Part shown: positions 1 to 52,588 of the stretch, one piece after another
How positions within the stretch are numbered: the stretch's first letter is position 1
Layout: each line of letters starts with the position of its first letter
Assembly (NCBI GenBank): GCA_035084275.1
Contig: CM068742.1
Span: 122,636,001-122,700,000 of the forward strand
Reading direction: 5' to 3'
Length of the DNA: 64,000 nt
Source of the DNA: Hydrolagus colliei
Taxonomy: Eukaryota
Made by a program: the position numbers and the translations under genes
The notes under the pieces: generated by a model
Told to the model about the DNA's origin: nothing
What the model saw: only the letters and a program-made list of their open reading frames with translations
The model's database searches: none

Positions 1-519
1 AAGACTTTGAAATGTCCTCCCAACTTTAAAGGTGCTGTAGCAACTGCGAATATTATTATAAATTATCCTGTTTTGCCCCGGCAACATTTGCTCTGAATTT
101 CCGCTTCCGACAGCTGCATGCTTTGACTTTTATGAGTTTATATGAGTCTGTGGGCTTATCACCTACTTCTACAGAAAAGCCAGGGTGCCCAGCAAGCAGG
201 GTATTCAAATAGTTCAGTCTTTATTTGATGAAGGGGTGGATAATGGTCTCAGAATCCCAGGGCGAGAGGCAGTGTTATGAACACACCCACATGATAAACA
301 GGTGTGTGCCTTGACCGGTCACTAGGGATGGGGAATCATCCTACTCAGCTTCTGTTAATCCTAGCCCAACCGGATAATTTTACCAAACAGAGATATCGAT
401 GGCAAGCTATGCGGTTTTAACTGGTTAGACTCCTGTAGTACTCCAACGCACACTGTGAGGTCCCCAAGCCTTGGTTCTTGCCAACCTGGCCCTAATACTT
501 TCCAGATTTAGGTAAGCAG

Positions 520-915
520 GATGCATCTGAGGGCTGTAAGTCCCTAGCAGATGGATGAGGTGAAGTTCCTCGAGCTTGCGCTGTGGTTCATTGGAACAGT
601 GTAGGAGACCATGGATGGAGAGGTCAGAATCTAAGTGGGAAGGAGAGTTGAACTGGCAAGAAACCGGAAGATCAGGATTATGCTTGTGGTCAGAACGGTG
701 TTCAGAAAATTGGTTACCCAATCTGCATTTTGTTTTCCCAGTATAGCGGAGACTACACTGTGAGCAGCATATGCAGTATTCTACATTGGTGGAAGCAGAT
801 GTAAATCGCTGTCTAACATGGGAAGTTTTTTAGGGGCCTGGGACAGTGGTCTGGGAGGAGATGAAACCGCAGGTATTGCATCTCCTGTGCTAGAGTGAGA
901 AGGTGCTGGGGGCGG
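520..915 (-). mobile_element. Penelope-like retroelement fragment (GIY-YIG endonuclease C-terminus)
   Basis: Minus-strand translation has ..YTGKTKCRLGNQFSEHRS..PDLPVSCQFNSPSH..LSIHGLLHCSNEPQRKLEELHLI, a typical vertebrate Penelope GIY-YIG end; degraded. Confidence 0.8.
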
Positions 916-1599
916 GTTGGGGGAGGAGAGCAGCTGTTGATGGTTTACTAATAGTTGCTGCTGTACTTGGGCATATTATAATGAGGTTCTGAGTGCTGGT
1001 TTTTTTCCAATTCAGTATCTGTGTGTAATAATTGACACAGATTTACTTGGTACAAACTCACATGGGATGGGTACAAACTCACAGGTGGGCATTACCCTGA
1101 TTTATACACACACACAATATATTAGAAGCATTTTATTTGACAGTGTTTATATACATTCAGCAAATTAGGAAGGGATTAACCTGATATTCACGCAAAGTAG
1201 AATTTCAGTAGAAAGCAATTTAGCTTGGAGTTTACAAAGTAGACACGTATTCAGAAAAAGAATGTTTGCATTTGATATAGCACCTTATCATGTCTGCTAG
1301 ACATCGCAAAGCTCTTCACCGAATAATAATAATTCTGGAATGTACTGCAAACAATGTATGTTTTGTGGGCTAAATGCGGCATTCAATTACACACTGCAGT
1401 GTTGCACAGTCATGGGTTAAGTGACCAAATTATTATTTCAATTAAATAGTTTTGAGGGGCTTAATACCCCCAGAACAGCAATCCGCCAATTGACTTAACA
1501 ACCAGGTTCCTACTGAGGTAAACCGAGGTGTGCGGAGTAAGGATACTTTCCCAACCTTTCTGCCTGCCTGGGGGGTAGAGTTTGGTAGGCACAGACAAA

Positions 1600-1894
1600 C
1601 ACAATATAATTTATTGATGCATAAAGCACGTAAATATGGAGAGAGGAGTTGTGCACACAGTAATATTAGGAGGAGTGTCAGAGGGTGAGCAGTGAGGCAG
1701 GTTTCCTCCCCTTCATTTCAGTCACACAACACAAGCGGTCGGATCCATCCGGCGGAAAGAGGTGATCGGGAAACTGCTGGACTGGACTCACAGTGAGACT
1801 ATCACCTTCAGACAGACAGACTTGGGGTGGGCTGTGTGGCTGCCCCCCCCCCCCCCCCCTCCACCCCCAGGGGAGAGAGAGAGAGACCCACACC
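1600..1894 (+). promoter_or_regulatory. Probable proximal promoter/5' UTR of the TTC39B-like gene
   Basis: Repeat-free, locally GC/CpG-enriched sequence just upstream of the Kozak ATG, with a poly-C run at ~1843-1859 and a GA repeat. The TSS cannot be placed from sequence alone. Confidence 0.4.
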
Positions 1895-1927
1895 ATGGCC
1901 AACCACGAGGGATGCCAGCCAGACGAG
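1895..1927 (+). CDS. TTC39B: TTC39B-like, coding exon 1 (MANHEGCQPDE)
   Basis: Strong Kozak context caccATGg. The 33-nt exon ends GAG|gtaact (phase 0) and joins exon 2 to give ...PDE-EQFEDAF, matching the position of human TTC39B ...EADE-DVFEDAL. Confidence 0.75.
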
Positions 1928-2707
1928 GTAACTCTCTCAGCCCCTCCAGCGCCTTCCCATTCATTCCTCAGCAAATCATATTGTGCTTTAATTGCAAGTT
2001 TGGATCCCAATCAGTGACAGAGGAGAGAGGAGAGAGAGATAAATAAATACCGAATGACCCGGAGTGTGTGTGTGTGCTGGAGTAATTGGGGACTAGGAAA
2101 GAATGTTTAACATTGCTTGATGCAAAGCATGTCCTTACATGACTTGGTGACTCGAGATGTGATTTTTTTTAAATAAAAAAAAAGAAAAACGTAAGGAAAA
2201 TGAAAGATTCTCATCGTTGTTCAGTTCAGATCGTGTCTTGATTTGCAAACCCCGTTGAAAAAGCTCTGTTTATTGCCGTGTTTTTGTCATTCACCTTGGC
2301 CACATTTGTGTTTGGAGGGAGGGGGTGGGGGGTGGGGGTGGAATTTGCTTTGGCGATAGATAGTAACGCCTTTATGCCTATAAATAAACAGAGATTTGGT
2401 GTGTGCGTGAGAGGGGAAGCATTTCATGAATTGGATCGGAAATGGTGGGTGTGTTTATATGTTCGATTTGATGATGAGTGTATAAACCAGCCAGTGTCTC
2501 TGTGTGTAACCCCAAGCTCAGGGCTGCCTGAACCCCCCACTGCCTGACACACTTCCTTATTGATTGCACGCTGCCACTGAGACCTTTAGACAGAGTGCTT
2601 TCTGAAGCCTGTTTGTGTTACAGCTGGAGAGGTGGGGGAGGGTAGCTTGGGCTCAGCCTCAGTGACAGATGAGTGCAATGCTGCTGTTGTAGCTTAGCCC
2701 AATTGAA

Positions 2708-2899
2708 GGGCTGGTGTCTGAGGTGAGACCTGGGCTGGTGTCTGAGGTGAGACCTGGGCTGGTGTCTGAGGTGAGACCTGGGCTGGTGTCTGAGGTGAGA
2801 CCTGGGCTGGTGTCTGAGGTGAGACCTGGGCTGGTGTCTGAGGTGAGACCTGGGCTGGTGTCTGAGGTGAGACCTGGGCTGGTGTCTGAGCTGGGACCT
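2708..2899. repeat. 24-bp minisatellite (GGGCTGGTGTCTGAGGTGAGACCT) x8
   Basis: Seven perfect units plus one variant. A further variant unit lies at ~3799-3831. Confidence 0.97.
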
Positions 2900-2904
2900 G
2901 GGTT

Positions 2905-3240
2905 GTTCTCCAATAAGGTCCCCACAATCCATGACCTTATCCTGAATGAGCACATTGATATTCTTGGGTTTACGGAAACCTGGCTCTCCCCCAGTGACTC
3001 TGACCCTCTATTTGAAGCCTATTCCTCTGACTGCTTCCCCTCTTTCGAGCATCTCACCCTCTACCATCGTTCTCTCATTGAAAATTGTGGTCTACAGCTC
3101 CACAGAAACCCCTGGCTCCTTCCTCTCTGACATCTCTTCTCCCTGTCCCTCTGCTCTGAACACCCGCTCATAATGGGTGACTTCAATCTCCACATAAACT
3201 CCCCTTGCACCACATCCTCTAACTTCACTTCTCTCCTCTC
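2905..3240 (+). mobile_element. L2-clade LINE ORF2 endonuclease fragment
   Basis: Translation NKVPTIHDLILNEHIDILGFTETWLSP..., later ..MGDFNLHINSP (APE-type EN motifs ETWL and GDFN); internally deleted. Confidence 0.8.
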
Positions 3241-3760
3241 AATAACAAAAACAACAAAATTACACTTGTATAGTGCCTTTTACGTCAGGAGGACATTCGA
3301 AGGTGTTGGACAGTCACTGCTTCAGACCTGACCTGGGGACGGGGTAGGGGGAGGGAAGGGGGGATTGGGATTTGCCGATGGGTCCATTGAAGAGGAGGGT
3401 CTTGAGGTGAGATTTAAAGTAGGCCAGGGAGGGGGCGAGGCGGAGGGACTGCGGGTTGGACTTCCAGAGGTTGGGGGCAGAGTGGCGAAAGGCTCGCCCC
3501 ACAATGGAGTTCTGGATTATCTGCAGCCTGTGGAAGGAGTAATTGGGAAGGCCGACAAGCAGGGCATTTGCTTAATTGAGCCAGGATGTAATGAAGGTGT
3601 GAATGAAGATTTCAGCGGCTTTGGAGGAGAGGTAGTGGCGGAGTCGGGCAATGTTGCAGAGATGGGGAAAGGCAGAGTGAGTCATTGCTTGGATGTGGGG
3701 GAGCAAAGACAATTGAGGGTTGAACAAGACATCTAGATTCCTGACTGGCTTGGTGAGCAA
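3241..3760 (-). mobile_element. L2 LINE 3' end with (GTT)n tail
   Basis: Minus-strand RNLDVLFNPQLSLLPHI..IARLRHYL..GRAFRHSAPNLWKS..FKSHLKTLLF, ending in GACGTAAAAGGCACTATACAAGTGTAATTTTGTTG. Confidence 0.85.
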
Positions 3761-5182
3761 CCATGGAGGTTGATGCTGCTAGCGCCTGATGCATGAGCTG
3801 AGACCTGGGCTGGTGTCTGAGCTGGGACCTGAGCTATTGCGGAGAGCTGTGTGATCAGCTTGTCTGAAATCAGTGTCTCCTCCTGAGACACTCACACCGC
3901 AGGCTTGAGCTCTCAGTAGTGGTGATTGCCACATAGGGACCTACCTAGGCAATTGAGACAAGGAAATTAGTCTTAGCTTTCCCCCCCAACCTCACTTCCT
4001 GTAGAAACACTTGACGTTTATTGAAATCAATCTGCCTACCTGAATGAGGCTGAGTTCATCACCTTGCTCAAAGGCAGTGGGCAGACACTGAATGCATTTT
4101 ATGTTTGGATAGCGATATGACACCTCACGTGTTCATTGATGTATATGTACAGTCTTCTCTTCTGAGCACCTCCCGTCCCCTTCACTCCTTTCTCACTAAT
4201 TGCAATTAATTAAATAAAAGAATTGCAAACAATCTGAATAAAGGAAGCACTTTACAAAAAAACTGGGGGTGGGTGAAGAATGACCCAATGGTCAGAATCT
4301 GATGATCCATCAGGCTTACCATTACTATGTAATTATAATCATTGCCTTTGATACAACACTTTATCATATCTTCGAGACATCTCAAAGAGCTTCACGGAAT
4401 ATATTGTAAAGCCAATTGACCATATCTTGTGGGTGAACCTCGATAGGCAATTGCAATGAAACATACAGATCCATGTTTGTCAACATTTAGAGATTAAATT
4501 AAGTATCAATATTAATTGCAGAATGAACTAGGCTGTTGTATATTTATAAATCACCCTGAAACACACATATCTGTATTACTTCACTGTGATTCTATTTTAG
4601 AACACTTCTACTATGTTCTGCAAATGGGTTTAGCAAAATCCAGGATGAAGACATAAATTCAAGCTTTTGGGATTTAATGTTTGTAGCTAGTGTTTCTTGT
4701 GTTGCAGCAGAAATGGGAAGAGAGAGAATGACTGATATGTGTAAATGTGTAATTCTTTGATATTTCATTGAATCCTCAAGAGGACTAAGGATAAGTAAAT
4801 CTCTCCCTGATTGTGTTGAAGCTATGTACTGAGTCAGAGTCAGAGGGAGTGGGGAGATTTGCAGGGTCCTAGATTAAATGATTAACAGCTCATCTGAGCT
4901 ACAAAACCTCCCACAATTAGCAGCGTTCCGGTTATGAGCTCAAATCCTGATATGCATTTCAAATAGCTAACTTTAGACTCCCAAGTCAAAAGTACTAGCA
5001 ACTGAGCCAAACTGATGCAAGACCCAATTTAAAGCATTTCAATTACTTGAAACACTTTCAACTGTTGTGTTAGTTTCTACCTTGGCATGATATGTGGCAC
5101 GATGCATAATTATTGGTGTCAGATATTGTCTTTATGAAGTTGTTTGAGAAGTTACTCCATGTAACTTACTCCATGTAATGTT

Positions 5183-5491
5183 GAGTCTTGTAGCTCAGTG
5201 GTTAGAGCACTTGCCTTGCAGGCAAGAGACCAGGCAGGGTGAAACTTTGGGCCGGTTTCCTTACTCCATAAATTTGATAATAATCCCATGAGAATAAAAA
5301 ACACTTCAATCCACGACTTTGTGGGGCAATGCTGTGTGCAATTGGCTGCCGCGTTTCACCCACAAATGTACAGTCAATTCACTTTACAGTATACAACAAC
5401 AACAGCAAAATTACACTTGTATATTCTCTGAGGTGCTTTGAGATGTCTAGAAGAAGTAATAATGCATTATATCAAATACAAGGGTTATTAT
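5183..5491 (+). mobile_element. tRNA-derived SINE (Deu-type body, L2-like 3' tail)
   Basis: A-box TAGCTCAGTGG, body motif GCTGTGTGCAATTGGCTGCCGCGTTTC, and tail ..ATCAAATACAAGGGTTATTATT. More than 10 related copies occur in the window. Confidence 0.85.
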
Positions 5492-6980
5492 TTGAAAGAT
5501 TTTATATTTATGCAGTTAATAGGCTGGAGTGTGCTTCAATGCCATAATGAGAGTGAAACTGAGCTAATACAATGTAACTTGAAAGTAACAACAGTAAACT
5601 CACGATAATTCTACCCTGGTTTACCTTGTCACTGACACTTATGTCATCGTACTGTCAATATCCCAGAGCCCTCCCCCCCTAACTCTCCATTCCTTATAAC
5701 TCATCACTAACTTCCCCCATTTTCTCTTGGAGTGATGAGCTATCAGGAGTTTAATGTATTTCTGATCAGGGTGGGCAGTAAATTCTAGTCTATTCACCAC
5801 AAGATTTCTTTGATGTATCTATCTCTCAGTCTAATTGGATTGTTTTCATTGACTGGAAGTTTTCTAGGTACTTCATGAAACCCTTCATAATCTTAAAATA
5901 CCTCTCAGGAGCTCATTCCTTGAATTTATTCGCATTTGTTATGGGCCCTAATTTGCTCCTCTTGACAGTTGAGACTTGGCTGCTGCCTGGAGAGATGAAA
6001 GAGAATAGGGAAGGAGAGATGAAAACTCGAAACAATGAAAAGGGAATTAGACTATTAAACTTGTTCAGCTTGTGGAATATCGGTTACTAACTTAATTATA
6101 AAGCAGACCTGCGGCTATGCTTGGATAACTATCTCCCAATTAAAAAAAAACAGATAATTTGCTTCATTCATGGCTGTTTGTAGGATAGCCTTGATGTCCT
6201 GATATGAAAGATCTACAAAAACTGTAAGGATTATTTCTCTGAATCTTAATACTCATTAAATAGTTGTTTAACTGCCTTTTGTCTGTTCCATATTTTTATC
6301 AGGGGAGAAATGATTCTTCTAATCTTAATGCTAGTGGAGTTTTTGCATGCTTATAATATAGTTAGGTTTGGTGCTAGACTCATTAGAAATCAAATTGAAG
6401 CAATAATGGAAAGATCAGGGAGGGAAGGGAAGGGAAAATCAAATGGACCTAATGGCCTAATTCATCTAAACTTCCCCTTTATGTTGAAAATTGGCATGTT
6501 ATGCAATTTAGTGGAGAGGAAATCCTGTTTCCTCTTAAATTGTAAACTAATACGTGAGCTTTGATGAGAAAGGATTTTGTCTGTATCTATACAGGGAGGA
6601 GGGAGAAATAACCATCTCTGAACTGTAGAAATTCTCAAGGTAATCTTTGTGAAGATGTATTTGAACACTTTTGTTGCATCATGAATGAATCACAAGGTTT
6701 CTCAGAAATAAAGCTTCACCTGTGCCATAATTAGTGCATGGTTGATCCTAATTCAACAACAACTCACAATTTAGGACACCAAGGTAACATCGCAGATTTG
6801 TTAATTTCTCTAATACTAGCAGAGTACATATGTGAATTTACATTGGGATATCATTTTCAAATACTATTCCGAATTAAATCGTTAGCATTTCAATTTCTGT
6901 AACATTTGTTTAAAGTTTTCTTTACTAACAATGCTCTCTCTCCTTGCTCAGGCTCTGTCAGTTGTGAAGTGTATTGAGAC

Positions 6981-7744
6981 TAGGGTCCGCCGATATATAG
7001 ATATATAAAATCGGAATGCGCGCACACTGAACTACAAGACCCAAAATGCTCATCTCTAAACACAATGCACAGACCGAGGTGCAAAGCCACCATATTGTAT
7101 TCATAGTCCTCGAACACAATATACAGGTATACAAGGGGTGGGGGGGGCGGGGGGAGAGAAGGCTGGAGGGGGGAGGGGGAGGGGGAGAGAGACGGCTGTG
7201 GGGGTGTGGGGGTGTGGGGGGGGACAGAGACGGCTGGGGGGTGTGTAGGGGGAGAGAGACGGCTGGGTGGGGGGTGGAGAGAGACGGCTGGGGTGGGTGG
7301 GGGGTAGAGATGGCGGGGGGGGGGGGGGGGTGTAGAGGGAGAGAGACGGCTGGGGGGGGTAGGGGGGGAGAGACGGCGGGGTGGGTGAGGGGGGAGAGAG
7401 ATGGCTGGTGGGGGTGGGGGGAGAGACGGGGTGGATGTGATAATATACAGATAGATAGAGATGGGGGGGATGTGAGAGAGACACAGAGACACAGACAGAA
7501 AAACACAGAGATGGAGAGAGTGAGAGAAACAGAGAGAGAAAAATATTTACCTGCTGAGGACATAGGCCCCGAATGCGCGCACACCCGAAATGCGCGCGCA
7601 CCAGGAACGCACGCATACTCCGAATTCGCGCGCCGCGTGCGTATGCGCAATATGAAAAACCCGAAAATATCGATATTTCGGTATATCACGATATGAGACC
7701 ATTGATATATCTAAATCGGAAAATTTCCATATCGACGGACCCTA
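6981..7744 (+). mobile_element. Non-autonomous hAT element (MITE family A), copy 1
   Basis: TIRs TAGGGTCCGCCGATAT / ATATCGACGGACCCTA with a perfect 8-bp TSD ATTGAGAC (6973-6980, 7745-7752). G/GA-rich interior. Confidence 0.9.
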
Positions 7745-7752
7745 ATTGAGAC

Positions 7753-8013
7753 TAGTGTCTGGCGATATATCGATATATCGGTTATATCAGAAAAATTCAA
7801 TATATTGAAAAAAACCGATATATCGCAAATATCGATATATCGTTTCTGACGATCTATCGATCTATCAGTATATATCGGTAAAATGCGGACTTTTTCAACT
7901 TACCTTGTCGATATCCAAATGCGCGCGCACACCGGAATGCAATATATCGGTATATGTCGATATGAGCAAACCGATATATCGATATCGGAAAATTTCCTTA
8001 TCGACGGATCCTA
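7753..8013 (+). mobile_element. Non-autonomous hAT element (MITE family A), copy 2, in tandem with copy 1
   Basis: Ends TAGTGTCTGGCGATAT / TTATCGACGGATCCTA, flanked by ATTGAGAC at 7745-7752 and 8014-8021. Confidence 0.9.
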
Positions 8014-8049
8014 ATTGAGACATTCTCCTGATATTAAAAGAACAATATA

Positions 8050-8570
8050 CAGTAAAAGCCCGTTTATCCGGGACCCATGGAACCTGGCCAATGCCGGTTA
8101 AATGGCATGCTGGATATTCGGTCGGAGACAACACCGAAAACACAATACAAAAAAAAACTTATGTTAACACATACCATATTAATAATAGACTGAATAATAA
8201 CAGATAATAACAGACTTTGTTATTCACCTAAAAATTCACTTAAAAATCACCTTTGCTGGTAGATGCCTGGGTTGAAGTCATGATGCTGGGGTAGAGGTGT
8301 CTACTAATAACTTCTGCAATGGCGGACACCACGCAAGGTATTTCGGTTTGCCGCTAATAGAGCCTTAAAGTCAACAGCACGACTTTAAGGCTCTACTAGC
8401 GACAAGTCAAAATACCTGTACAGTACTCTCGTGCGACAATTGATTCATTAAATGCGCCATTGCGATTGTGCCAGAAAATATCCGGTTAATTGGATGAAAA
8501 CTTTTTTTGGGGCATACCGGTCATACGGAAGTTCTGGTTGATCGAGTCATGGATAAATGGGCTGTTACTG
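8050..8570. mobile_element. Tc1/mariner (Tigger/pogo-like) MITE, family B
   Basis: TA TSD on both sides; TIRs CAGTAAAAGCCCGTTTATCC / GGATAAATGGGCTGTTACTG. Confidence 0.85.
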
Positions 8571-9444
8571 TAAATTATTGTATTGTAAACCAATCACTTT
8601 GGATTTCATTGTCAGATATGTCCTCACTACACAATGAAGGTTTTTAAAGAGTTAACTATTTTGAAAAGGCAGTGTTATATCTCTCACCAGAGCTACTTGT
8701 ACAGCTAAGGAAAGTTTTTGATTTTGAACGTTGAACAGCATGGTTTGAATGAGACACATCAAAACTGTGATCTTTAAACTCATATTATATTGAAGATTTT
8801 CCAGTACGCTGAGCAGGATGTCCTGTGTTGTGTCTGGCCAGATATCGGTAGGAATCAGGATGCTGTTATCTGTGGGTGCTGACACAACTGTGACCAAATT
8901 GTATTTAGATTGTTGGTATGCTCAGTGCTATGAATATTTCACTAAACCATTGTTAATATAGGATGTATCTGTTTAGACAAGTCCAAAATCCCACTTTCTA
9001 ATTGCAATTTTTAAATCTCCTACCTTAATGGAACTTGTATAATTAGTAATATTTGGTTAGTGAGATATTAGTAATAATAAAAATAATAATCCTTGCATTT
9101 GATATAGTGCTTTTCACATATTATGGATGTCTCATAGTGTTTCCCTATCTTGGTTAACTTGGTTAACTTTGGCCTCCCAGATGTTTTGGTGCCAGGAATA
9201 GTTTTTATAGAATTGGCATCGGCCCATAGATAAATTCACCAATAGAAACTTTAAGATTTAAGATCTACACAACCTTGTTTGATGGATGGCCTGGGAACAC
9301 CTAGCAGATTATTTTAAATAATAGTTAGCAATAATAATAATAAAAGTTAGTTCTTGCTATTCCTCATTGTTATCTCAACTCAATTGGAATGACAGTCACA
9401 GTAGTGATGCTATTGTGCCCTAATGCCCTTTGGTTAGGAGAGTT

Positions 9445-9763
9445 AATAAAAATAATCATAATAATCATGATCATAATCCTTGCATTTGATATAGCGCTTT
9501 TGTACGTTTTCTAGACATCTCAAAACCCTTCATAGAATATACTGTAAAGTGAATTGACTGTATATTTGTGGGCAAAACATGGCAGCTAATTACACACAGC
9601 AGTGTCCCATAAACAGTTGCGGATTGTAATGACAATTTTTAATTGAGGGATTATTATTGGCATTTGGAGTAAGGAAACTTGCCCAAGGTTTCACCCAGCT
9701 TGGAATCGAACCCAGGACTTTTGTTTGTAAGGCAAGTGGTATAAAGACTGAGCTACAGGACTC
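9445..9763 (-). mobile_element. Full-length tRNA-derived SINE
   Basis: On the minus strand: head GAGTCCTGTAGCTCAG, B-box GGTTCGATTCC, Deu-type body and (ATT)n-like tail. Confidence 0.88.
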
Positions 9764-9945
9764 TACATTTTTCTAGTGTTTTTAAAGTCCTAATCTTGCA
9801 GCTCATGTTTTAAATATTGAAATTTGAGGTCAAGTCAGCCAAATGTGATAGCGATGAAAAGCTGTGGCAGAGAACTGGAGAGTGACAATATAGTGGTAAC
9901 ATTCTTGAAAAAGGAGATAGAGGTAATGCAGGTAACGCAGGTACC

Positions 9946-10160
9946 TTCACGACACCTCATCCCACCCGGTCTCTTGCAAAGATGGCATCCCCATTTCCCA
10001 GTTCCTCCGCCTCCACCGCACCGACTCTGGCGATGCAACATTTCAGACCAGAGTGACTGAGATGTCTGCATTTTTCCTCGACCGACGATTCCCACCAATC
10101 CTGGTAGCAAAGGCCCTTGATCGTGTCCATCCAATTTCCCGCACCTCCGCCCTCACCCCT
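9946..10160 (+). mobile_element. Penelope-like element fragment (RT thumb/linker)
   Basis: SHPPGL..KDGIPISQFLRLHR..DATF..EMSAFFLDRRFPPILVAKALDRV, similar to the Penelope 'IPxSQFLRLRRI' region. Confidence 0.7.
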
Positions 10161-10580
10161 GAAGGTGGGGAAGGAGTGGGTAAGGCAGAGGGATTGAGCG
10201 AGAGAAGTATGAAATTTTGGGTGAAGGCACGGCCATCCCTGGTGGAATGGAGGATAGGAGGGACAAACTGGAAGCTGGAGAAAACCTGAGCAGTGATAGT
10301 GGGTGGTGCAGTGGAAACAAGTGAGAGGATTTTGAAATCAATCTGTTCTCTGATTTGGAGCCAGTGGAACCTGGCAAAGACTGGTGTGAAGCTATCAAGT
10401 TTTGTGTGAGTGAGTATCCAGGTGGAGGAGTTTTGAACTAATCGGATTTAATTTATGGTGGAGCTGGGGAGACATTGGAATATTCCAGCTGGAAAGTGTC
10501 TAAGGCGTGGTTGAGGGTTTTAGCTGTGGTGGTTGAGAGGTACGGACGGAGATGGGCAATGTGACGAAGGTGGAAAAAAG
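10160..10580 (-). mobile_element. Degraded L2 LINE ORF2 3' fragment
   Basis: Purine-rich plus strand. Minus strand resembles the L2 C-terminal 'FFHLRHIAHLRPYLS..HALDTF' and 'LHWLQI..RLISK' segments. Confidence 0.65.
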
Positions 10581-13280
10581 GAACAGATGTGTGCTAGAAT
10601 GTAAAGCTGGGAATTTGTTACGAAATCTGATCTGCCTTGGATTTCTGTTACGACAACAACAACTTGTATTTACATAGCACCCTTCACATGGGGTAGCATC
10701 ACGAACTAGCCTTGAATCTCACACTGCTGTGTCCATCAAAATACACAGTTATCGTTTTTATACTGTATGTTGTAGGGGTCACTGAATTGAAAGCTCCTTG
10801 AATCCTACTGACCCCCTCACTTCCTTCCCTCGGTGAACAATGGCCTGCTCCACGTCACCCCATCCCTAACTGATCTGCTCCACCATTGGGCAGGCTTTCA
10901 GTGATTCTATTCCTGGTCTATGGAACTGCATTTCGGAGTTCCTCTGACTGGCTTCCTCTTTCCTTTTATTAATGGCATGTGTCAAGACATTTTTTGACCA
11001 TGCTTTCGGTTATGTTTTCGCTCCACATCCTCTTTGTCTTTCACATGCTCCCAGCCCCAGTGTGGGCGCCCAGTCAGAAGTGTCAAGGTCTTTGAGATAC
11101 CCTCTCAATGTGAAAGATGCTATATAAATGTAAATTGTATGTGACTTTTCTGCCTGATGTGGACTTAGATCCTCAGTTGACATTGGTTATGGTTCAGGTT
11201 GCATGTATAAACAACTGTAACAAACGGAGCACAATAATAAGCAGAGTAGATAAAATGGTAGTGGAAACAGTTAATAGGGAGCCATGTGAAATAATTTGTA
11301 AAGGAAGAGAGCTCTAATTGTAAATACAATACAACAGAATTTGTATTTATCAAATTCTGTTCATGCAGCATAGCGTCTTATTGAACTGAAATTGTTCCCA
11401 CACTCTTTCTCCCAGATAAATGCAATTGTATTGATGTCACACAATTCACATTAAAAGGTTGACTCAAAACACTCAATACAAATATGCATATTTCAGGGAT
11501 CACTAGATAACGACAACATTTTGCATTTATACAGCGCCCCTCATGCAGAATAGCATCCCAGAGCACTTGACAGTGGAAGAGTCTTATGGGGAGGTGACAG
11601 TAGACACGATAAAAGAGGAAGGTCTTCAGGATCGATCTGAAAATGGGGAAGGAAGGATAGAGGATAAGGAGGGATAGAGGATAAGCTTCCAGAGTTTCGG
11701 ACCATAGTGGCTACAATCATGGCCAACGATTGTGGTACGGAGAGCAGGAGAGATATGCAGAAGGCTGGAGGTAGCACTTGGTAACTTCATTTGCAACCTC
11801 CTGAATCCTAGACACTAATTCCATCTGAAGCTTTCCCCAGAAAGACAGCAAAGAATAAGAAAAAACCGAGTGGTCCATCAAGGCTGTTCTCTCACAATAT
11901 TCACTGCCTTCCAGGAACTTGCTTCTCTTGACCCAGCTGAGATGGAATGGAATCCGCAGGTTTAGTTCTATGCTCAGTATGTTCATCTCAGCTGGGAAGG
12001 GGAGGAAGCGCATTGCCATAAATTGCACCTTTGCAAATGCTTGTGTGTGATCTCGGAGTGGTGAAAAATTATGTTTGTTTTTTCTGATTCTTCCCTAAAA
12101 TTTCATAAAAGAGTACCAATCTATCCCATGTGCAATTTCATAAAGAAATGTGCTTTTATAACAGCAAACTTAAGTCCACTCCAAGATCACACACAAGCAT
12201 TTGCAAAGGTGCAATTTATGGCAATGCGCTTCCTCCCCTTCCCAGCTGAGATGAACATACTGAGCATAGAACTAAACCTGCGGATTCCATTCTCCACCCA
12301 ATAGGCCATCGAGGCAGAGGCTATCTAAACACCAGATTACAGTGATGCAGGAGCACCAAAACCAAAGATGCTTTGTTCTGGAAAACACCTCTCGTTTTAA
12401 AGGGATTACTGTAATACTAGTTTACAGTGACTGATTTGCGAAAATCTCATTACAGTATATAAACCTGATGGTATTAAGCTGAATAATCACTTGTGGCGTG
12501 ACTTAACAGCTAGGTAATTGCTATCCTATATACAGAGTAGATTAACCATTTAAATAACCAGAGTTGTTTGAGTGTACAGAAATATGATTGTGGAGTTCAT
12601 GTTGTCGAATTATTTTCTCTGCTATGCTCTGAAAATTTTGCATCGGGTCAAAAACGCATTTCTTATGGAATGCTTTCCCTTTTCCAAATGTCAAGAACTA
12701 CACCATTTTGTAAACTAATATCAAATGACCAAGGACTGCAAGCGGAGTCTCCTTCGAGTCAAACTGGTTCCAATGTGACATGCTTGATGAAAGAATGTCA
12801 GAATCAAGTCAACTGCCTTGATGTCATCTTGGTAGATCTGGTTCCTGACAAAGGTGGGTCTGCATTAAGTCAGGGCAGTGCTGAGGATAGCCCAGCCAGC
12901 CTGACTCATTGCAGGACTTGAAGAAGTAAACCATTCACTGGGAACAGGGATTTTCTTCCTGTAAGCTACAGCTCTAATGGATAATGGCCACAGCTGGACA
13001 AGCGATGGAAACGTTGTCAGGCAGGGCTTTCAGTGCTAAACTACATTAAACTCTTGATAGCAAGATCCTGTCTTAACTTATCACTACTACTTGATTCACC
13101 AACTTGTCAATATCCCTGCAGCTTCTCATGCAAAATGTTAATAAAGGACTCGGCATTACTTGTCACTCCACTTAACACATAGTTGCATTCTAGAAATTCT
13201 TTTAGGTACTTCTTCAGATAACTTGTCCTATAAGATGGCAACTACCATTGTGGAGACCTCCTTTCCTATCATGTAGAGAT

Positions 13281-14669
13281 AAGGAATAAAAAAGGAGCAG
13301 TTACACTGTTAGGGATATATATACTATAGACCACCAAATATTTGCAAGGAGATAGAAGAGCAGATCTGCAAGCAGATTTCGGAAAGATGCAAAGTCAATA
13401 GAGTAGTGATAATGGGAGACTTTAATTATCCCAACATCGACTGGCAATAGTAGTGTTAAGGGCAAGGATGGAGAAGAATTTCTGAAATGTATACAGGACA
13501 GCTTTCTTGATCAGTATGTTTCCAGTCCAACAAGGAAGGATGCTGGATATAGTTTTGTGGAATGAGGTGGGGCAAGTACAACAGGTTTCTGTAGGTGAGC
13601 ACCTTAGAAATAGCGATCACAACATTATTAGATTCAGGATAAGTATAGAAAGGGATAAGGAACACTCAAAGGTGAAGACACTCAACTGGAAGAAGGCTAA
13701 TTTTAGTGAGTTAAAACGAGACTTGGGTGTGGGGAGCATAGTTTCCAAGTTTGCAGATGATACTAAGTTAGGGAGAATAGTAAATAGTGAGGAGGATAGT
13801 AACCATCTGCAAGAAGATATAGATAAAATGGTAAAGTTGGCAGACACATGGCAGATGAAGCTTAATACAGAGAAGTGTGAGGTGATACATTTTGGGAGAA
13901 GAAATGAGGGGAGGCAATATAGGCTAGATAGTACAATTTTAAGGGGTGTGAGGGTACAGAGAGACCTGGGGATTTGTGTTAGTGACTCTTTGAAGGTGGC
14001 AGGACAGGCAGACAAAGCCGTTAAGAAGGCATATGGGATACTAGGTTTTATAAATAGGGGTATAGAGTACAAAAGTCAGGAAGTGCTGACTAACCTCTAT
14101 AAAACTTTGGTTAGGCTTCAGCTGGAGTACTGTGTCCAATTCTGGTCACCACACTATAGAAAGGATGTTAAAGCATTGGAAACGGTGCGAAGAAGGTTTA
14201 CTAGAATGGTACAAGGATTGAGGGACTTCAGTTATGGGGAAAGGCTAGATAGGCTAGGTTTATTCTCTTTAGAACAGAGAAGGTTGAGAGGAGACCTAAT
14301 AGAGGTTTATAAAATCGTGACAGGATTCGACAGGGTGAATAAGGAAAGACTGTTTCCACTGGTGGGTGAATCTATGACTCGTGGTCACTGATTTAAAATA
14401 GTTTCAAAACGAAGCAGAGGGGAGCTGAGGAGAAATTTTTTCATTCAGCGGGCTGTTCAAATCTGGAATGCATTGCCTGAAAAGGTGGTGGAGGCCGATT
14501 CGATAACAGCTTTTAAAAGAGAATTAGATGTTTATTTAGGGAGAACAGGTCTGTTAGGTTATGGGGAGAGAGCTGGGCAGTGGGATTGAGTTGCTCTTTT
14601 GAAAGAGCTGGCACAGACTAGATGGGCCGAATGGCCTCCTTTTGTGCTGTAAAATTCTATGATTCTATG
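13281..14669 (+). mobile_element. CR1 LINE, 5'-truncated and internally deleted (EN C-terminus fused to RT C-terminus)
   Basis: EN motifs YYRPPN, MGDFNYPNIDW, SDHNII; RT motifs SKFADDTKLG, TWQMKLNTEKC, LEYCVQFWSPHY, LFSLEQRRLRGDLIEVYKI; CR1-type 3' octamer tail ATTCTATG x2. Confidence 0.95.
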
Positions 14670-14671
14670 TA

Positions 14672-15046
14672 CAGTAGAAGCCCGTTTATCCGTGACCCCG
14701 GATTGTTCGACCCCCTCCCGGGGCAATTCCCTATTCCAGCAATCACGAGTATGCTGAATTTGCATGTGCGCAATGCGTGCGCATACGCACTTATTAAACT
14801 TACGAACTTGGAGGTTTTTACCGATTGGTAAAAAATGCTTTTTTACCGATTTTTTACCAAGTGTGCTGAAATCTTTATTGTAAAGTAGCTATATAATATT
14901 CTGTTTCTATTTAATATATTATTAACATAGTATGTTTTAAAATAAGTCAATTTTTTGTGTTGGGTTTTCGGCAACGTGCCGCCCGATTATCCGGCATAGT
15001 CAATTGGTTGACCCCCCAAGCGTGCCGGATAAACGGGCTTCTTTTG
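14672..15046. mobile_element. Tc1/mariner (Tigger/pogo-like) MITE related to family B
   Basis: TA TSD; TIRs CAGTAGAAGCCCGTTTATCCG / CGGATAAACGGGCTTCTTTTG. Sits immediately at the CR1 tail. Confidence 0.85.
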
Positions 15047-16049
15047 TACCTGTGCAGGCACTTGGCAAAGGTTGGGGCCTGGACGCTCAGACGCATTGCA
15101 GAGACCTCTGGTCTATTGGCCTGCCTCCCACTTTATCTGTGATAGAATAAATAATATAATAATAGCAGTTGGCCACAGTGTGGCTCTTCAATAGCTATCA
15201 GGGCCTTGTTACATGTTGGGTAGGGATTTTATGAATCCCTTACAACTGCTGTTTAATGGAGATTTTATTGTATTGGAGTCGAAGCACTCACTGACAGATT
15301 GCTTCAGCTTTTGGTGAAGGGGAAACTAGCAGCTGCAGCTACAATGTAGTGGTACCAAAGGGTTACATTTTTGTAGGTATTGGTGTCAAATGCCAGATTG
15401 AACCATTGTTCATTGTGCAATTACACACAGTACTAGACAATATAAATTTGTTTTCCGTGATCAAATTTCAGAAATGTTAGACTGCTGTAATCAAAGGACA
15501 CTTTTGGGGAGTTCTGTTGTACTTTGAAGGAAGAAATAGGGGAAATTAATTATCTTTAGTGTCAGATTGCCTTAAGCAATGCATCGCTTGGAGTAATTAA
15601 ACAACTTTGTTTATGTATTGTGTTGTGTTGTCAGATGGCAAACCAAGCCAAAGATGCTGCCAAACATTGTTGGATCTTGAGCCATGATTCGAATTTAACT
15701 GGCTGTCATCTGTCAATATAGCCATGCATTACAGAGCAAGGAAAACATACTGATCAAAGGTCATTTTTTAAGCAACAAACTGAACAAGAGAAACCAGCCT
15801 ATTTTAATACATCAGTTGATTGATCACCTTCATCCGAGAGAGAGTCTGATTATCAGACTGTACATCCATACATTGAGGTGTATGATTGCAATCGTATTTT
15901 ATGGCAGCAGTGGCTAGCCTTAGAGCTTACGTACTGTTTTATCTTAAAGTTTCCTTATTGCTGGGGTCAGCCTGGTCCAGTTGGTAGCAGTCTCAACAAC
16001 CACAACAACTTGCATTTATACAGTGCCCTCCACGCAGAGTGGCATCCTG

Positions 16050-30047: not shown

Positions 30048-30513
30048 TTGTGTCTGGCGATATATTTATATATCGGTTATATCGATATAATTTTTCATAT
30101 CGATATGCTGATATCAGAATTTAAAATATATTTATATCAAAAAATTAGATATAAAAAATATTGGTATATCCTAAATATCGGTATATCGTTTCCAGCCGAT
30201 ATATTGGTATTATCGGTATTATCGGTATAATGCAAACTTTTCCAACTTACCTTGTCGCCGGCATTGCAGACCTCCTGGGCCTAGAGCACAGAATGCGCGC
30301 GCGTATCGGAATATGCGCGCACATCCGAATGCGCGCGCACATCTGAATGTGCAAGTACCTCCGAATGCGTGCGCACCCCCAAATGTGCGCGCACATCCGA
30401 ATGCGCACGCATGCACAGTGTAAAAAGACATGGAAATATCGATATATCGGTATATATCGATATGAGCCCACCGATATATTGATATTGCAAAATTTCCATA
30501 TTGACGGACCCTA
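30048..30513 (+). mobile_element. Non-autonomous hAT element (MITE family A), copy 3
   Basis: Ends TTGTGTCTGGCGATAT / ATATTGACGGACCCTA. Degenerate 8-bp TSD CTGCAAAG/CCACACAG, where TG/CA is consistent with CpG decay. Internal ~18-nt (GCGCGCACATCCGAAT) repeats. Confidence 0.85.
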
Positions 30514-51542: not shown

Positions 51543-52588
51543 TAGGGTCCGTCGATATGGAAAATTTCCGATATCGATATATTGGTGTGCTCATATCGAT
51601 ATATATCGATATTTTCGGGGTTTTTATACTGTGCATGCGTGCGCATTTGGGGGTGCACGCGCATTCGGGGCACTGAACTAAAAGACCTGGAATGCTCATC
51701 TCTCCCACAAAGTGTCGCCACCGATTGTCCGAGGTCGCCATTTTGGTTGGTCCTCGATGCGCAGAGAGAGTGTGTGACAGGGGAGAGAGAGGGACAGGGG
51801 AGAGAGAGACAGAGAGGGGGGAGGGAGGGACAGAGAGAGACAGGGACAGGGGAGAGAGGGACAGAGAGAGTGTGACAGGGGAGAGAGGGATGGAGGGGGA
51901 GGGGGCAGGATGTGGATCTGGCTCAGGTGTTGGCCTATCTCCTCACGAGGTAAATATCTCTCTCTCTCTGTGTCTCTCACACTCACTCTCTCCATCTCTC
52001 TCTCTGTCTGTGTCTCTCTGTCTGTGTCTCTCTGTCTGTGTCTCCTCTCTCACATCCCCCCCACTCCCCATCTCTCCATCTATCTATTTTATATACTGTA
52101 TATTATGACATTCCCTCTCTCTCCCCCACCTCTCCCTCTCCCTCTCTCCCCCCCTCTTCCCCTGTCTCTCTCTCTTCCACCCTCTCCCCTTCTATCTCCC
52201 CCTCTCCCCCCACCCCTTGTATACCTGAATATTGTATTCGAGCGGCTTGACGGTAACACCTCGGTTTGTGCATTGTGTATAGAGATGAGCATTCTAGGTC
52301 TTTTAGTTCAGTGATTTGGATGTGCGTGCGCATTCCGATATGTGCGCGCATTCTGTGCTCTAGGCCCAGGAGGTTGCAATGCCGGCGACAAGATGAGCTG
52401 GAAAAGTTTGTATTATACCGATAATACCGATATATCGCCGGAAATGATATACTGATATTTACGATATACCAATTTTTTTTTATATCGCATTTTTCGATAT
52501 ATCAATATATTTTAAATTCCGATATCGGCATATTGATATGAAAAATTATATAGATATAACCAATATATCGATATATTGCTGGACCCTA
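51543..52588 (-). mobile_element. Non-autonomous hAT element (MITE family A), copy 4: longest, opposite orientation
   Basis: Ends TAGGGTCCGTCGATAT / ATATTGCTGGACCCTA; TSD CTCATAGT/CTCGTATT (6/8). Interior blocks are reverse-complement matches to copies 1 and 3. Confidence 0.9.

What the first reader, a model, noticed from the sequence alone, without database searches (positions are those of the whole stretch)
6973..8021. Tandem double insertion of two different hAT MITE derivatives at one site, with three copies of the 8-bp TSD
Seen: ATTGAGAC-[764-bp element]-ATTGAGAC-[261-bp element]-ATTGAGAC, and each element has its own pair of TAG..CGATAT terminal inverted repeats. The two are not copies of each other: copy 1 has the GA/G-rich core but lacks most of the left subterminal array, and copy 2 has that array but no core. 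Known: an 8-bp TSD with TAGGG-type ends marks the hAT superfamily, and TSD-separated tandem dimers form when a cut-and-paste element inserts precisely at an existing TSD. Inference: a second insertion targeted the first one's TSD. This implies strong site preference or homing, and is a possible seed for satellite DNA.
Basis: partly seen in the sequence, partly recalled or inferred. Interest (0 to 1): 0.7.

Follow-up and report, generated by a model that had tools for sequence, protein, structure and literature searches.

The report
Two transposons stacked at one site
Two different short copies of a common cut-and-paste jumping gene sit end to end between three copies of one 8-letter landing site, likely because the second landed on the site copy made by the first; this genome holds at least 30 such pairs, and the arrangement is a known kind.

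Summary
Confirmed: ATTGAGAC–764 bp–ATTGAGAC–261 bp–ATTGAGAC, each element with its own 16-bp TIRs. Both belong to an abundant non-autonomous hAT family (about 6,400 exact right ends). Near-full-length relatives encode a BED-finger/hAT transposase. The two members come from different size subfamilies and are less alike than random copies, so this is not a local duplication. It is not unique: 30 of 46 TIR–8 bp–TIR junctions examined have three target copies, in all orientations, and 19 of the 46 join this family to a younger sister subfamily. Spacer 8 is about 86-fold enriched over neighbouring spacings. A simple target-sequence model predicts 13–25-fold, leaving a 3–6-fold residual, and dimer targets are less consensus-like than that model predicts. 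Extra end-directed targeting is therefore possible but not shown. No trimers or arrays were found, so the satellite-seed idea is unsupported. No empty-site allele was found, and the order of the two insertions is unresolved. Double insertion at a regenerated target is published (P element, hobo), and this scan has noted it on other DNA. Verdict: new member of a known kind.

The parts
6973..6980 (+). Target-site copy 1 (ATTGAGAC)
   Evidence: flush with E1 left TIR
6981..7744 (+). Element E1, 764 bp, non-autonomous hAT, ~830-bp G-rich-core subfamily of family A, with a ~90-bp deletion in the left subterminal array not shared by 7 aligned relatives
6981..6996 (+). E1 left TIR
   Evidence: (I14)
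7134..7426 (+). G-rich minisatellite-like core of E1 (27-33-bp units)
7729..7744 (-). E1 right TIR (exact family consensus)
7745..7752 (+). Target-site copy 2, shared spacer between the elements
7753..8013 (+). Element E2, 261 bp, ~320-bp coreless subfamily of family A, with further 56- and 25-bp deletions
7753..7768 (+). E2 left TIR (2 differences from family consensus)
7763..7842 (+). E2 left subterminal CGATAT repeat array (17-bp period); BED-finger binding sites by inference
   Evidence: function inferred from Hermes (PMC10368747 passages)
7998..8013 (-). E2 right TIR (2 differences from consensus)
8014..8021 (+). Target-site copy 3

Best explanation
Two independent non-autonomous hAT copies likely inserted one after the other at the same 8-bp target, because the first insertion duplicated a site the transposase already favoured and the second likely used one of those copies. 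Shown: three target copies flush with four TIRs; members from different subfamilies; a family target preference of [GC]TnnnnA[GC]; a BED/hAT transposase in longer relatives; 30 such dimers in all orientations. Inferred from hAT chemistry: the transposase was supplied in trans and made 8-bp staggered strand transfers, one of which falls at the bond between the resident element's end and its TSD. Also inferred: re-use is driven by sequence preference, by the T that the TIR supplies next to the target, and by local site quality that a simple weight matrix does not capture. Which element came first is unresolved.
For: 45 junctions with an 8-bp spacer against 0 in the control; 30 of 46 examined have three target copies. 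Orientation among 18 A-A junctions: 12 head-to-tail, 5 head-to-head, 1 tail-to-tail, which unequal exchange cannot give. Members of 14 complete A-A dimers align at only 70-89% in pieces. E1 and E2 are 81% alike in the right subterminal 57 nt; 44 and 53 of 60 unrelated singles match them better. In 5 of 5 A-B dimers with one divergent outer copy, it lies on the side of the older family A, as sequential insertion predicts. Dimer targets score closer to the consensus than singles (3.5 vs 3.1 of 4; n = 38 vs 99; p = 0.004), the direction McGurk and Barbash report for P-element dimers (PMC5932611, passages). Background is flat from 9 to 130 bp (about 0.23 vs 0.22 per offset), so there is no distance-graded attraction.
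Against: The weight matrix predicts 12.5-fold (A into A) and 25-fold (B into A) enrichment. Observed over local background: 42-fold (95% CI 11-127, p = 0.03) and 144-fold (57-383, p = 7e-5). This dimer's own target scores 3 of 4. Sequence preference as modelled is therefore not the whole story. No empty or single-element allele was seen.
Confidence: 0.72

Rival explanations
1. Same double insertion, but resident ends actively direct it: transposase bound to the resident TIR and subterminal repeats holds or pre-bends the adjacent TSD, so even mediocre targets are re-used, across sister subfamilies.
For: 3-6-fold residual over the weight-matrix prediction, and fewer full-consensus targets than predicted. 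3 A-B junctions at spacers 1, 3 and 5, and one B copy nested in an A TIR (L069). A and B TIRs differ at only 2 of the first 14 bases, and their transposase DNA is about 90% identical.
Against: No excess at 9-30 bp over 31-130 bp. The matrix rests on 60 A and 39 B decayed sites and ignores dinucleotide, shape and chromatin terms. Nucleotide-level hotspots exist for P elements without resident elements (PMC2577343, passages). Counts are small (13 and 5 junctions; 9 and 12 background). Dimer targets are still more consensus-like than singles.
Confidence: 0.22
2. One insertion was duplicated locally (unequal exchange or repair through the TSDs), and the two copies then lost complementary internal parts.
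For: Head-to-tail orientation and superficially complementary content (core versus array); both copies are of similar divergence from their relatives (7.4% and 5.7%).
Against: E1 and E2 are less alike than either is to most random copies. Each matches a separate dispersed subfamily. Inverted and A-B dimers cannot arise this way.
Confidence: 0.03
3. The 8-mer is a fixed internal part of a longer composite element, or the structure is an assembly artefact.
For: No contig laid spans the whole dimer. The family carries an internal TIR-like repeat about 143 bp from the left end.
Against: Of the 9 exact junctions, only this one has this spacer, and spacers differ across the 45. The two members differ in sequence, which a collapsed or duplicated assembly would not produce. 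Contigs of two runs cross the first TSD into E1.
Confidence: 0.03

Closest known systems
TE tandem dimers formed by double insertion (P element, hobo, jockey, R1 in Drosophila; McGurk and Barbash 2018, PMC5932611; abstract and passages seen)
   Same: One TSD-length spacer between intact TIRs; dimer targets closer to consensus than singles; site preference as the proposed cause; hobo is itself a hAT with an 8-bp spacer.
   Different: Here the dimers are old (members 70-89% alike) assembled loci in a vertebrate genome with all three TSD copies readable. About half join two subfamilies with different TIRs. Junction TIRs are intact by construction of my search, whereas most hobo dimers (24 of 36) had junction deletions, a class I would miss. 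No expansion to arrays was seen.
Target-site restoration by P-element TIRs and the singed-weak double P element (Linheiro and Bergman 2008, PMC2577343; abstract and passages seen)
   Same: Insertion regenerates the target; double insertions lie exactly 8 bp apart; the TIR's first base matches the preferred flank (T at +1 is 0.51 for B).
   Different: The TIR flank effect is weak here (1.4-fold for B, 0.6-fold for A over six bases), and all orientations occur, not mainly inverted ones.
MITE multimers in rice, maize and mosquito (review PMC5172404, passage seen; the primary paper by Jiang and Wessler 2001 was not held)
   Same: Non-autonomous elements piling up at each other by independent insertions, within and between families.
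   Different: As described in the passage those are adjacent or nested insertions; here the excess is confined to the exact TSD register.
Hermes and other Ac-group hAT elements (PMC10368747 and PMC3942097, passages seen)
   Same: 8-bp TSD, nTnnnnAn target, short TIRs, subterminal repeats, BED finger plus C-terminal dimerisation domain.
   Different: The two window elements encode nothing. The related transposase matches Hermes only weakly by sequence (E 5e-4).

Membership tests
hAT superfamily (non-autonomous derivative) | 8-bp target-site duplication | tested here: met
   51 of 60 unbiased singles have both ends with an 8-bp TSD at 3 or fewer mismatches; 34 are identical.
hAT superfamily (non-autonomous derivative) | Short TIRs of 10-25 bp with subterminal repeats | tested here: met
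   16-bp TIRs and CGATAT arrays; range from PMC3942097 passage.
hAT superfamily (non-autonomous derivative) | A related long element with the same ends encoding a hAT transposase | tested here: met
   L239: 4,798 bp, family-A TIRs, 8-bp TSD; zf-BED E 3e-9 and Dimer_Tnp_hAT E 4e-19; E1 and E2 ends align to it.
hAT superfamily (non-autonomous derivative) | Intact, active DDE transposase in the genome | not tested
   The gene is in several ORF pieces (introns and/or breaks); catalytic residues and intactness were not checked. Weak match to the Hermes catalytic region.
Ac group of hAT | nTnnnnAn target preference | tested here: met
   T at position 2 and A at position 7 at 0.72 (A) and 0.73 (B) in symmetrised matrices.
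Ac group of hAT | Transposase falls in the Ac clade | not tested
   No tree was built.
Double-insertion tandem dimer | Spacer equals one TSD and equals both outer flanks | tested here: met
   Three identical copies here; 30 of 46 junctions genome-wide have three copies within 2 substitutions.
Double-insertion tandem dimer | Members of independent origin | tested here: met
Double-insertion tandem dimer | Empty or single-element allele at the orthologous site | tested here: inconclusive
   8 of 12 listed runs were laid. None showed an empty site; 2 show an apparent 1.3-kb deletion across the region.
TE-derived satellite or expanding array | Three or more homogenised units sharing one junction | tested here: not met
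   No trimer in 41 loci checked; the 3 flagged were chance matches.

The most novel reading that the evidence does not exclude
This vertebrate hAT lineage has an end-directed insertion route: transposase engaged on a resident element's end presents the adjoining TSD as a target in exact register, with relaxed sequence demands, so a younger subfamily systematically docked beside copies of its older sister. The 30 dated dimers would then be a fossil record of end-guided target capture in a eukaryotic cut-and-paste transposon.
Probability: 0.22. Interest if true: 0.55.

Novelty: new member of a known kind. Interest (0 to 1): 0.3.

Why it matters
As a single locus it is ordinary: double insertion at a regenerated target is published. 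Its use is as a census. One genome yields 30 dimers with all three TSD copies, two subfamilies whose order can be read, and a flat local background. That allows a number to be put on target re-use (about 86-fold) and on the share that simple sequence preference explains. If the 3-6-fold residual survives a full target model, resident ends steer insertion, which would matter for hAT vectors such as Tol2 and Hermes and for how TE clusters arise. The absence of trimers suggests that heterologous dimers rarely seed satellites.

Tried and rejected
(1) 'The middle TSD copy is hypermutable or made by a special mechanism', suggested by 4 of the first 9 junctions: rejected. In the full set the middle copy differs in 5 of 13 informative dimers, as 1 in 3 predicts (p = 0.77). 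(2) Ordering E1 and E2: the three TSDs are identical, and divergences of 7.4% and 5.7% are not separable, as E1's figure includes a poorly alignable G-rich core. (3) Empty-site search in reads: (X12, X1, X5, X11) was swamped by repeat contigs. In one search (unique left flank; X6-X9), X7 and X8 laid nothing. All are contigs of shallow or small-share runs, so absence proves nothing. (4) Host gene: 26 of the 119 ORFs listed for 1-16000 were scanned, with no hit above cut-off; unresolved. (5) Distance-graded tethering: no excess at 9-30 bp. (6) Seven of the 45 junctions (L073-L075, L077, L078, L088, L091) have a partner that is not family A or B and no third TSD; treated as chance and not counted. 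(7) Literature: 6 searches found no paper on cross-subfamily hAT dimers in a vertebrate or on end-directed hAT targeting. The library omits most subscription journals, and no supplements were read, so this is weak evidence of absence. A cod hAT-MITE 'tandem' paper (PMC12368964; abstract and section 8 read) describes internal tandem repeats at inversion breakpoints; that section reports no TSD-separated dimers.

Full report
Observation. The sequence shows ATTGAGAC at 6973-6980, 7745-7752 and 8014-8021, enclosing elements of 764 bp (E1) and 261 bp (E2). Each has a 16-bp TIR pair. The 8-mer itself is common (4 found, 2.9 expected), but two further exact copies flush with TIRs have a chance of about 4e-10. 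The window lies at C1:122636001-122700000 of a 1.0-Gb genome.

The family. Both elements belong to an abundant family, here called A. There are 5,144 exact 15-base right ends under a pattern that excludes one base at one place, so about 6,400 in all (estimate). Of 60 singles taken in order along C1, 51 have both ends with an 8-bp TSD (34 identical, 11 with one mismatch, 5 with two, 1 with three) and lengths of 142-1,891 bp. The target matrix is [GC]TnnnnA[GC], matching the nTnnnnAn preference stated for Hermes (PMC10368747, passage). A sister subfamily B has TIRs that differ at two bases and 4,569 counted ends (about 2,900 copies by my estimate). 19 of 20 B copies have identical TSDs, so B is likely younger; those 20 were chosen for two exact ends, which biases them young. 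A Pfam search of the genome led to a 4,798-bp element with A TIRs (L239) and 4.8-5.2-kb elements with B TIRs (L240-L242); L239 is about 90% and L241-L242 95-97% identical to a further transposase copy, L236. Their ORFs carry zf-BED (E 3e-9) and the hAT dimerisation domain (E 4e-19) and match Hermes weakly (E 5e-4). Membership of hAT is therefore tested, not assumed. Whether any transposase copy is intact was not tested.

E1 and E2 are independent. E1's best relatives are 815-874 bp long with the G-rich core, and E1 lacks 90 columns of their left array (7 of 11 loci yielded a full element). E2's relatives are mostly 274-362 bp without core, and E2 lacks 56 and 25 columns (26 of 29 loci). In the right subterminal 57 bases E1 and E2 are 81% alike, while 44 of 60 singles match E1 better and 53 of 60 match E2 better. 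A local duplication is thus very unlikely. Divergence from relatives (7.4% and 5.7%) does not order them.

The structure recurs. I examined those 45 plus one B-B junction, most with 4 kb of flank each side. One search classed 15 as three identical copies, 8 with one outer copy different, 5 with the middle different, 9 with one far end not found, 8 with a partner end not recognisable as A or B, and 1 unresolved. One of the 8 (L092) has three copies and a truncated junction end, and the unresolved B-B case has three identical copies. That gives 30 of 46 complete dimers. By partner, 18 junctions are A-A, 19 A-B and 1 B-B. A-A orientations are 12 head-to-tail, 5 head-to-head and 1 tail-to-tail. 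Members of 14 complete A-A dimers align at 70-89% in pieces, and the B-B pair at 94%. In all 5 A-B dimers with a divergent outer copy it lies on A's side, so B likely came second. My early idea that the middle copy is special failed (5 of 13, p = 0.77).

How strong is re-use? With exact 9- or 10-base ends, spacer 8 has 5 A-A, 13 A-B and 1 B-B junctions. For spacers 31-130, one search gave 29 matches. I dropped 7 by eye (2 segmental duplicates, 1 internal to a dimer, 4 with a 9-mer that is neither A nor B), leaving 12 A-A, 9 A-B and 1 B-B in 100 offsets. Spacers 9-30 give 5 in 22 offsets, the same rate, and spacers 0-7 give 3 A-B cases. Enrichment at spacer 8 is 86-fold overall (95% CI 44-167), 144-fold for A-B (57-383) and 42-fold for A-A (11-127). 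A weight matrix that includes the native flank and the TIR-side flank predicts 25-fold and 12.5-fold; the excess has p = 7e-5 and 0.03. Dimer targets are more consensus-like than singles (p = 0.004), as site preference predicts. Site preference is real and large, yet as modelled it falls 3-6-fold short. The matrix is small, decayed and mononucleotide, and nucleotide-level hotspots are known for P elements (PMC2577343, passages), so unmodelled site quality is the simpler reading. End-directed capture remains open at about 0.2.

Alleles. Contigs of X12 (no differences; possibly the source sample) and X1 (4 differences) run from the left flank through the first TSD into E1. Contigs of X6 and X9, from two studies and 95-99% alike, leave the window at 6943 and continue with bases that match 8285-8311 at 25 of 27 (compared by eye). 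This suggests a 1.3-kb deletion allele covering the dimer site and half of the neighbouring element, but the matched stretch is repetitive and the contigs are shallow. It is not an empty site and does not test the order.

Mechanism. Inferred from hAT chemistry: a transposase supplied in trans binds TIRs and subterminal repeats, excises a non-autonomous copy, and joins its ends across an 8-bp stagger; gap filling duplicates the target. Either copy is again a target of above-average quality, with a T supplied by the TIR at +1. A later insertion into it yields target-element-target-element-target. Expansion to a satellite would need homology between units; E1 and E2 share about 100 bp at 83-85%, and no trimer was found in 41 loci.

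Comparison and verdict. McGurk and Barbash (PMC5932611; abstract and passages) established TSD-separated dimers by double insertion for P, hobo and others. Linheiro and Bergman proposed target restoration by TIRs. MITE multimers are reviewed in PMC5172404 (passage). This scan has noted similar stacks on other DNA (not checked here). Six paper searches found no account of cross-subfamily hAT dimers in a vertebrate; supplements were not read and could hold such lists. The finding is real and correctly read in outline, and it is a new member of a known kind. Its modest interest lies in the genome-wide census and the testable residual.

Noticed in passing
window 8050-8570: A 521-bp TA-flanked element with TIRs starting CAGTAAAAGCCC (Tc1/mariner- or pogo-like by my recall, not tested) begins 28 bp after the third TSD. 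It has an internal 37-bp inverted repeat at 8336-8417 and is high-copy.
   Followed up: partly
window 6944-8284 (runs X6, X9): Contigs from two studies appear to skip about 1.3 kb including the whole dimer site; possible deletion allele in a related population or species.
   Followed up: partly
window 51543-52588 (-) and about 30048-30513 (+): Two further family-A copies: 1,046 bp with a TSD differing at 2 bases, and about 466 bp with a decayed left end and no matching TSD at the assumed border.
   Followed up: partly
L069 (G000:C21:1460521-1468521): A B copy is nested inside the right TIR of an A copy that is itself half of a head-to-head dimer.
   Followed up: partly
G000:C2:87619284, C3:108872985, C22:11390815: A-B junctions with spacers of 1, 3 and 5 bp: B likely inserted at targets overlapping the last bases of an A TIR. 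Flanks not fetched.
   Followed up: no
L207, L218, L225 (G000 C6:8896833, C6:44491814, C1:36196803): A ~1.2-kb subfamily of A keeps only the transposase's C-terminal dimerisation-domain segment between its TIRs.
   Followed up: partly
L035 and L036 (G000:C6:24194803 and 24239893): Two independent dimers lie only 45 kb apart; C3 also holds many of the 45 junctions. Clustering not tested.
   Followed up: no
G000:C3:104117884-104851476: About nine near-identical hAT dimerisation-domain hits within 0.75 Mb; possibly a tandem gene array or segmental repeats of another hAT-derived gene.
   Followed up: no
family A, about 143 bp inside the left end: The short subfamily carries an internal near-copy of the left TIR that could act as an alternative end.
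   Followed up: no
window 2708-2902: A 24-bp unit repeated 8.1 times at 98% identity, embedded in LINE-like sequence.
   Followed up: no
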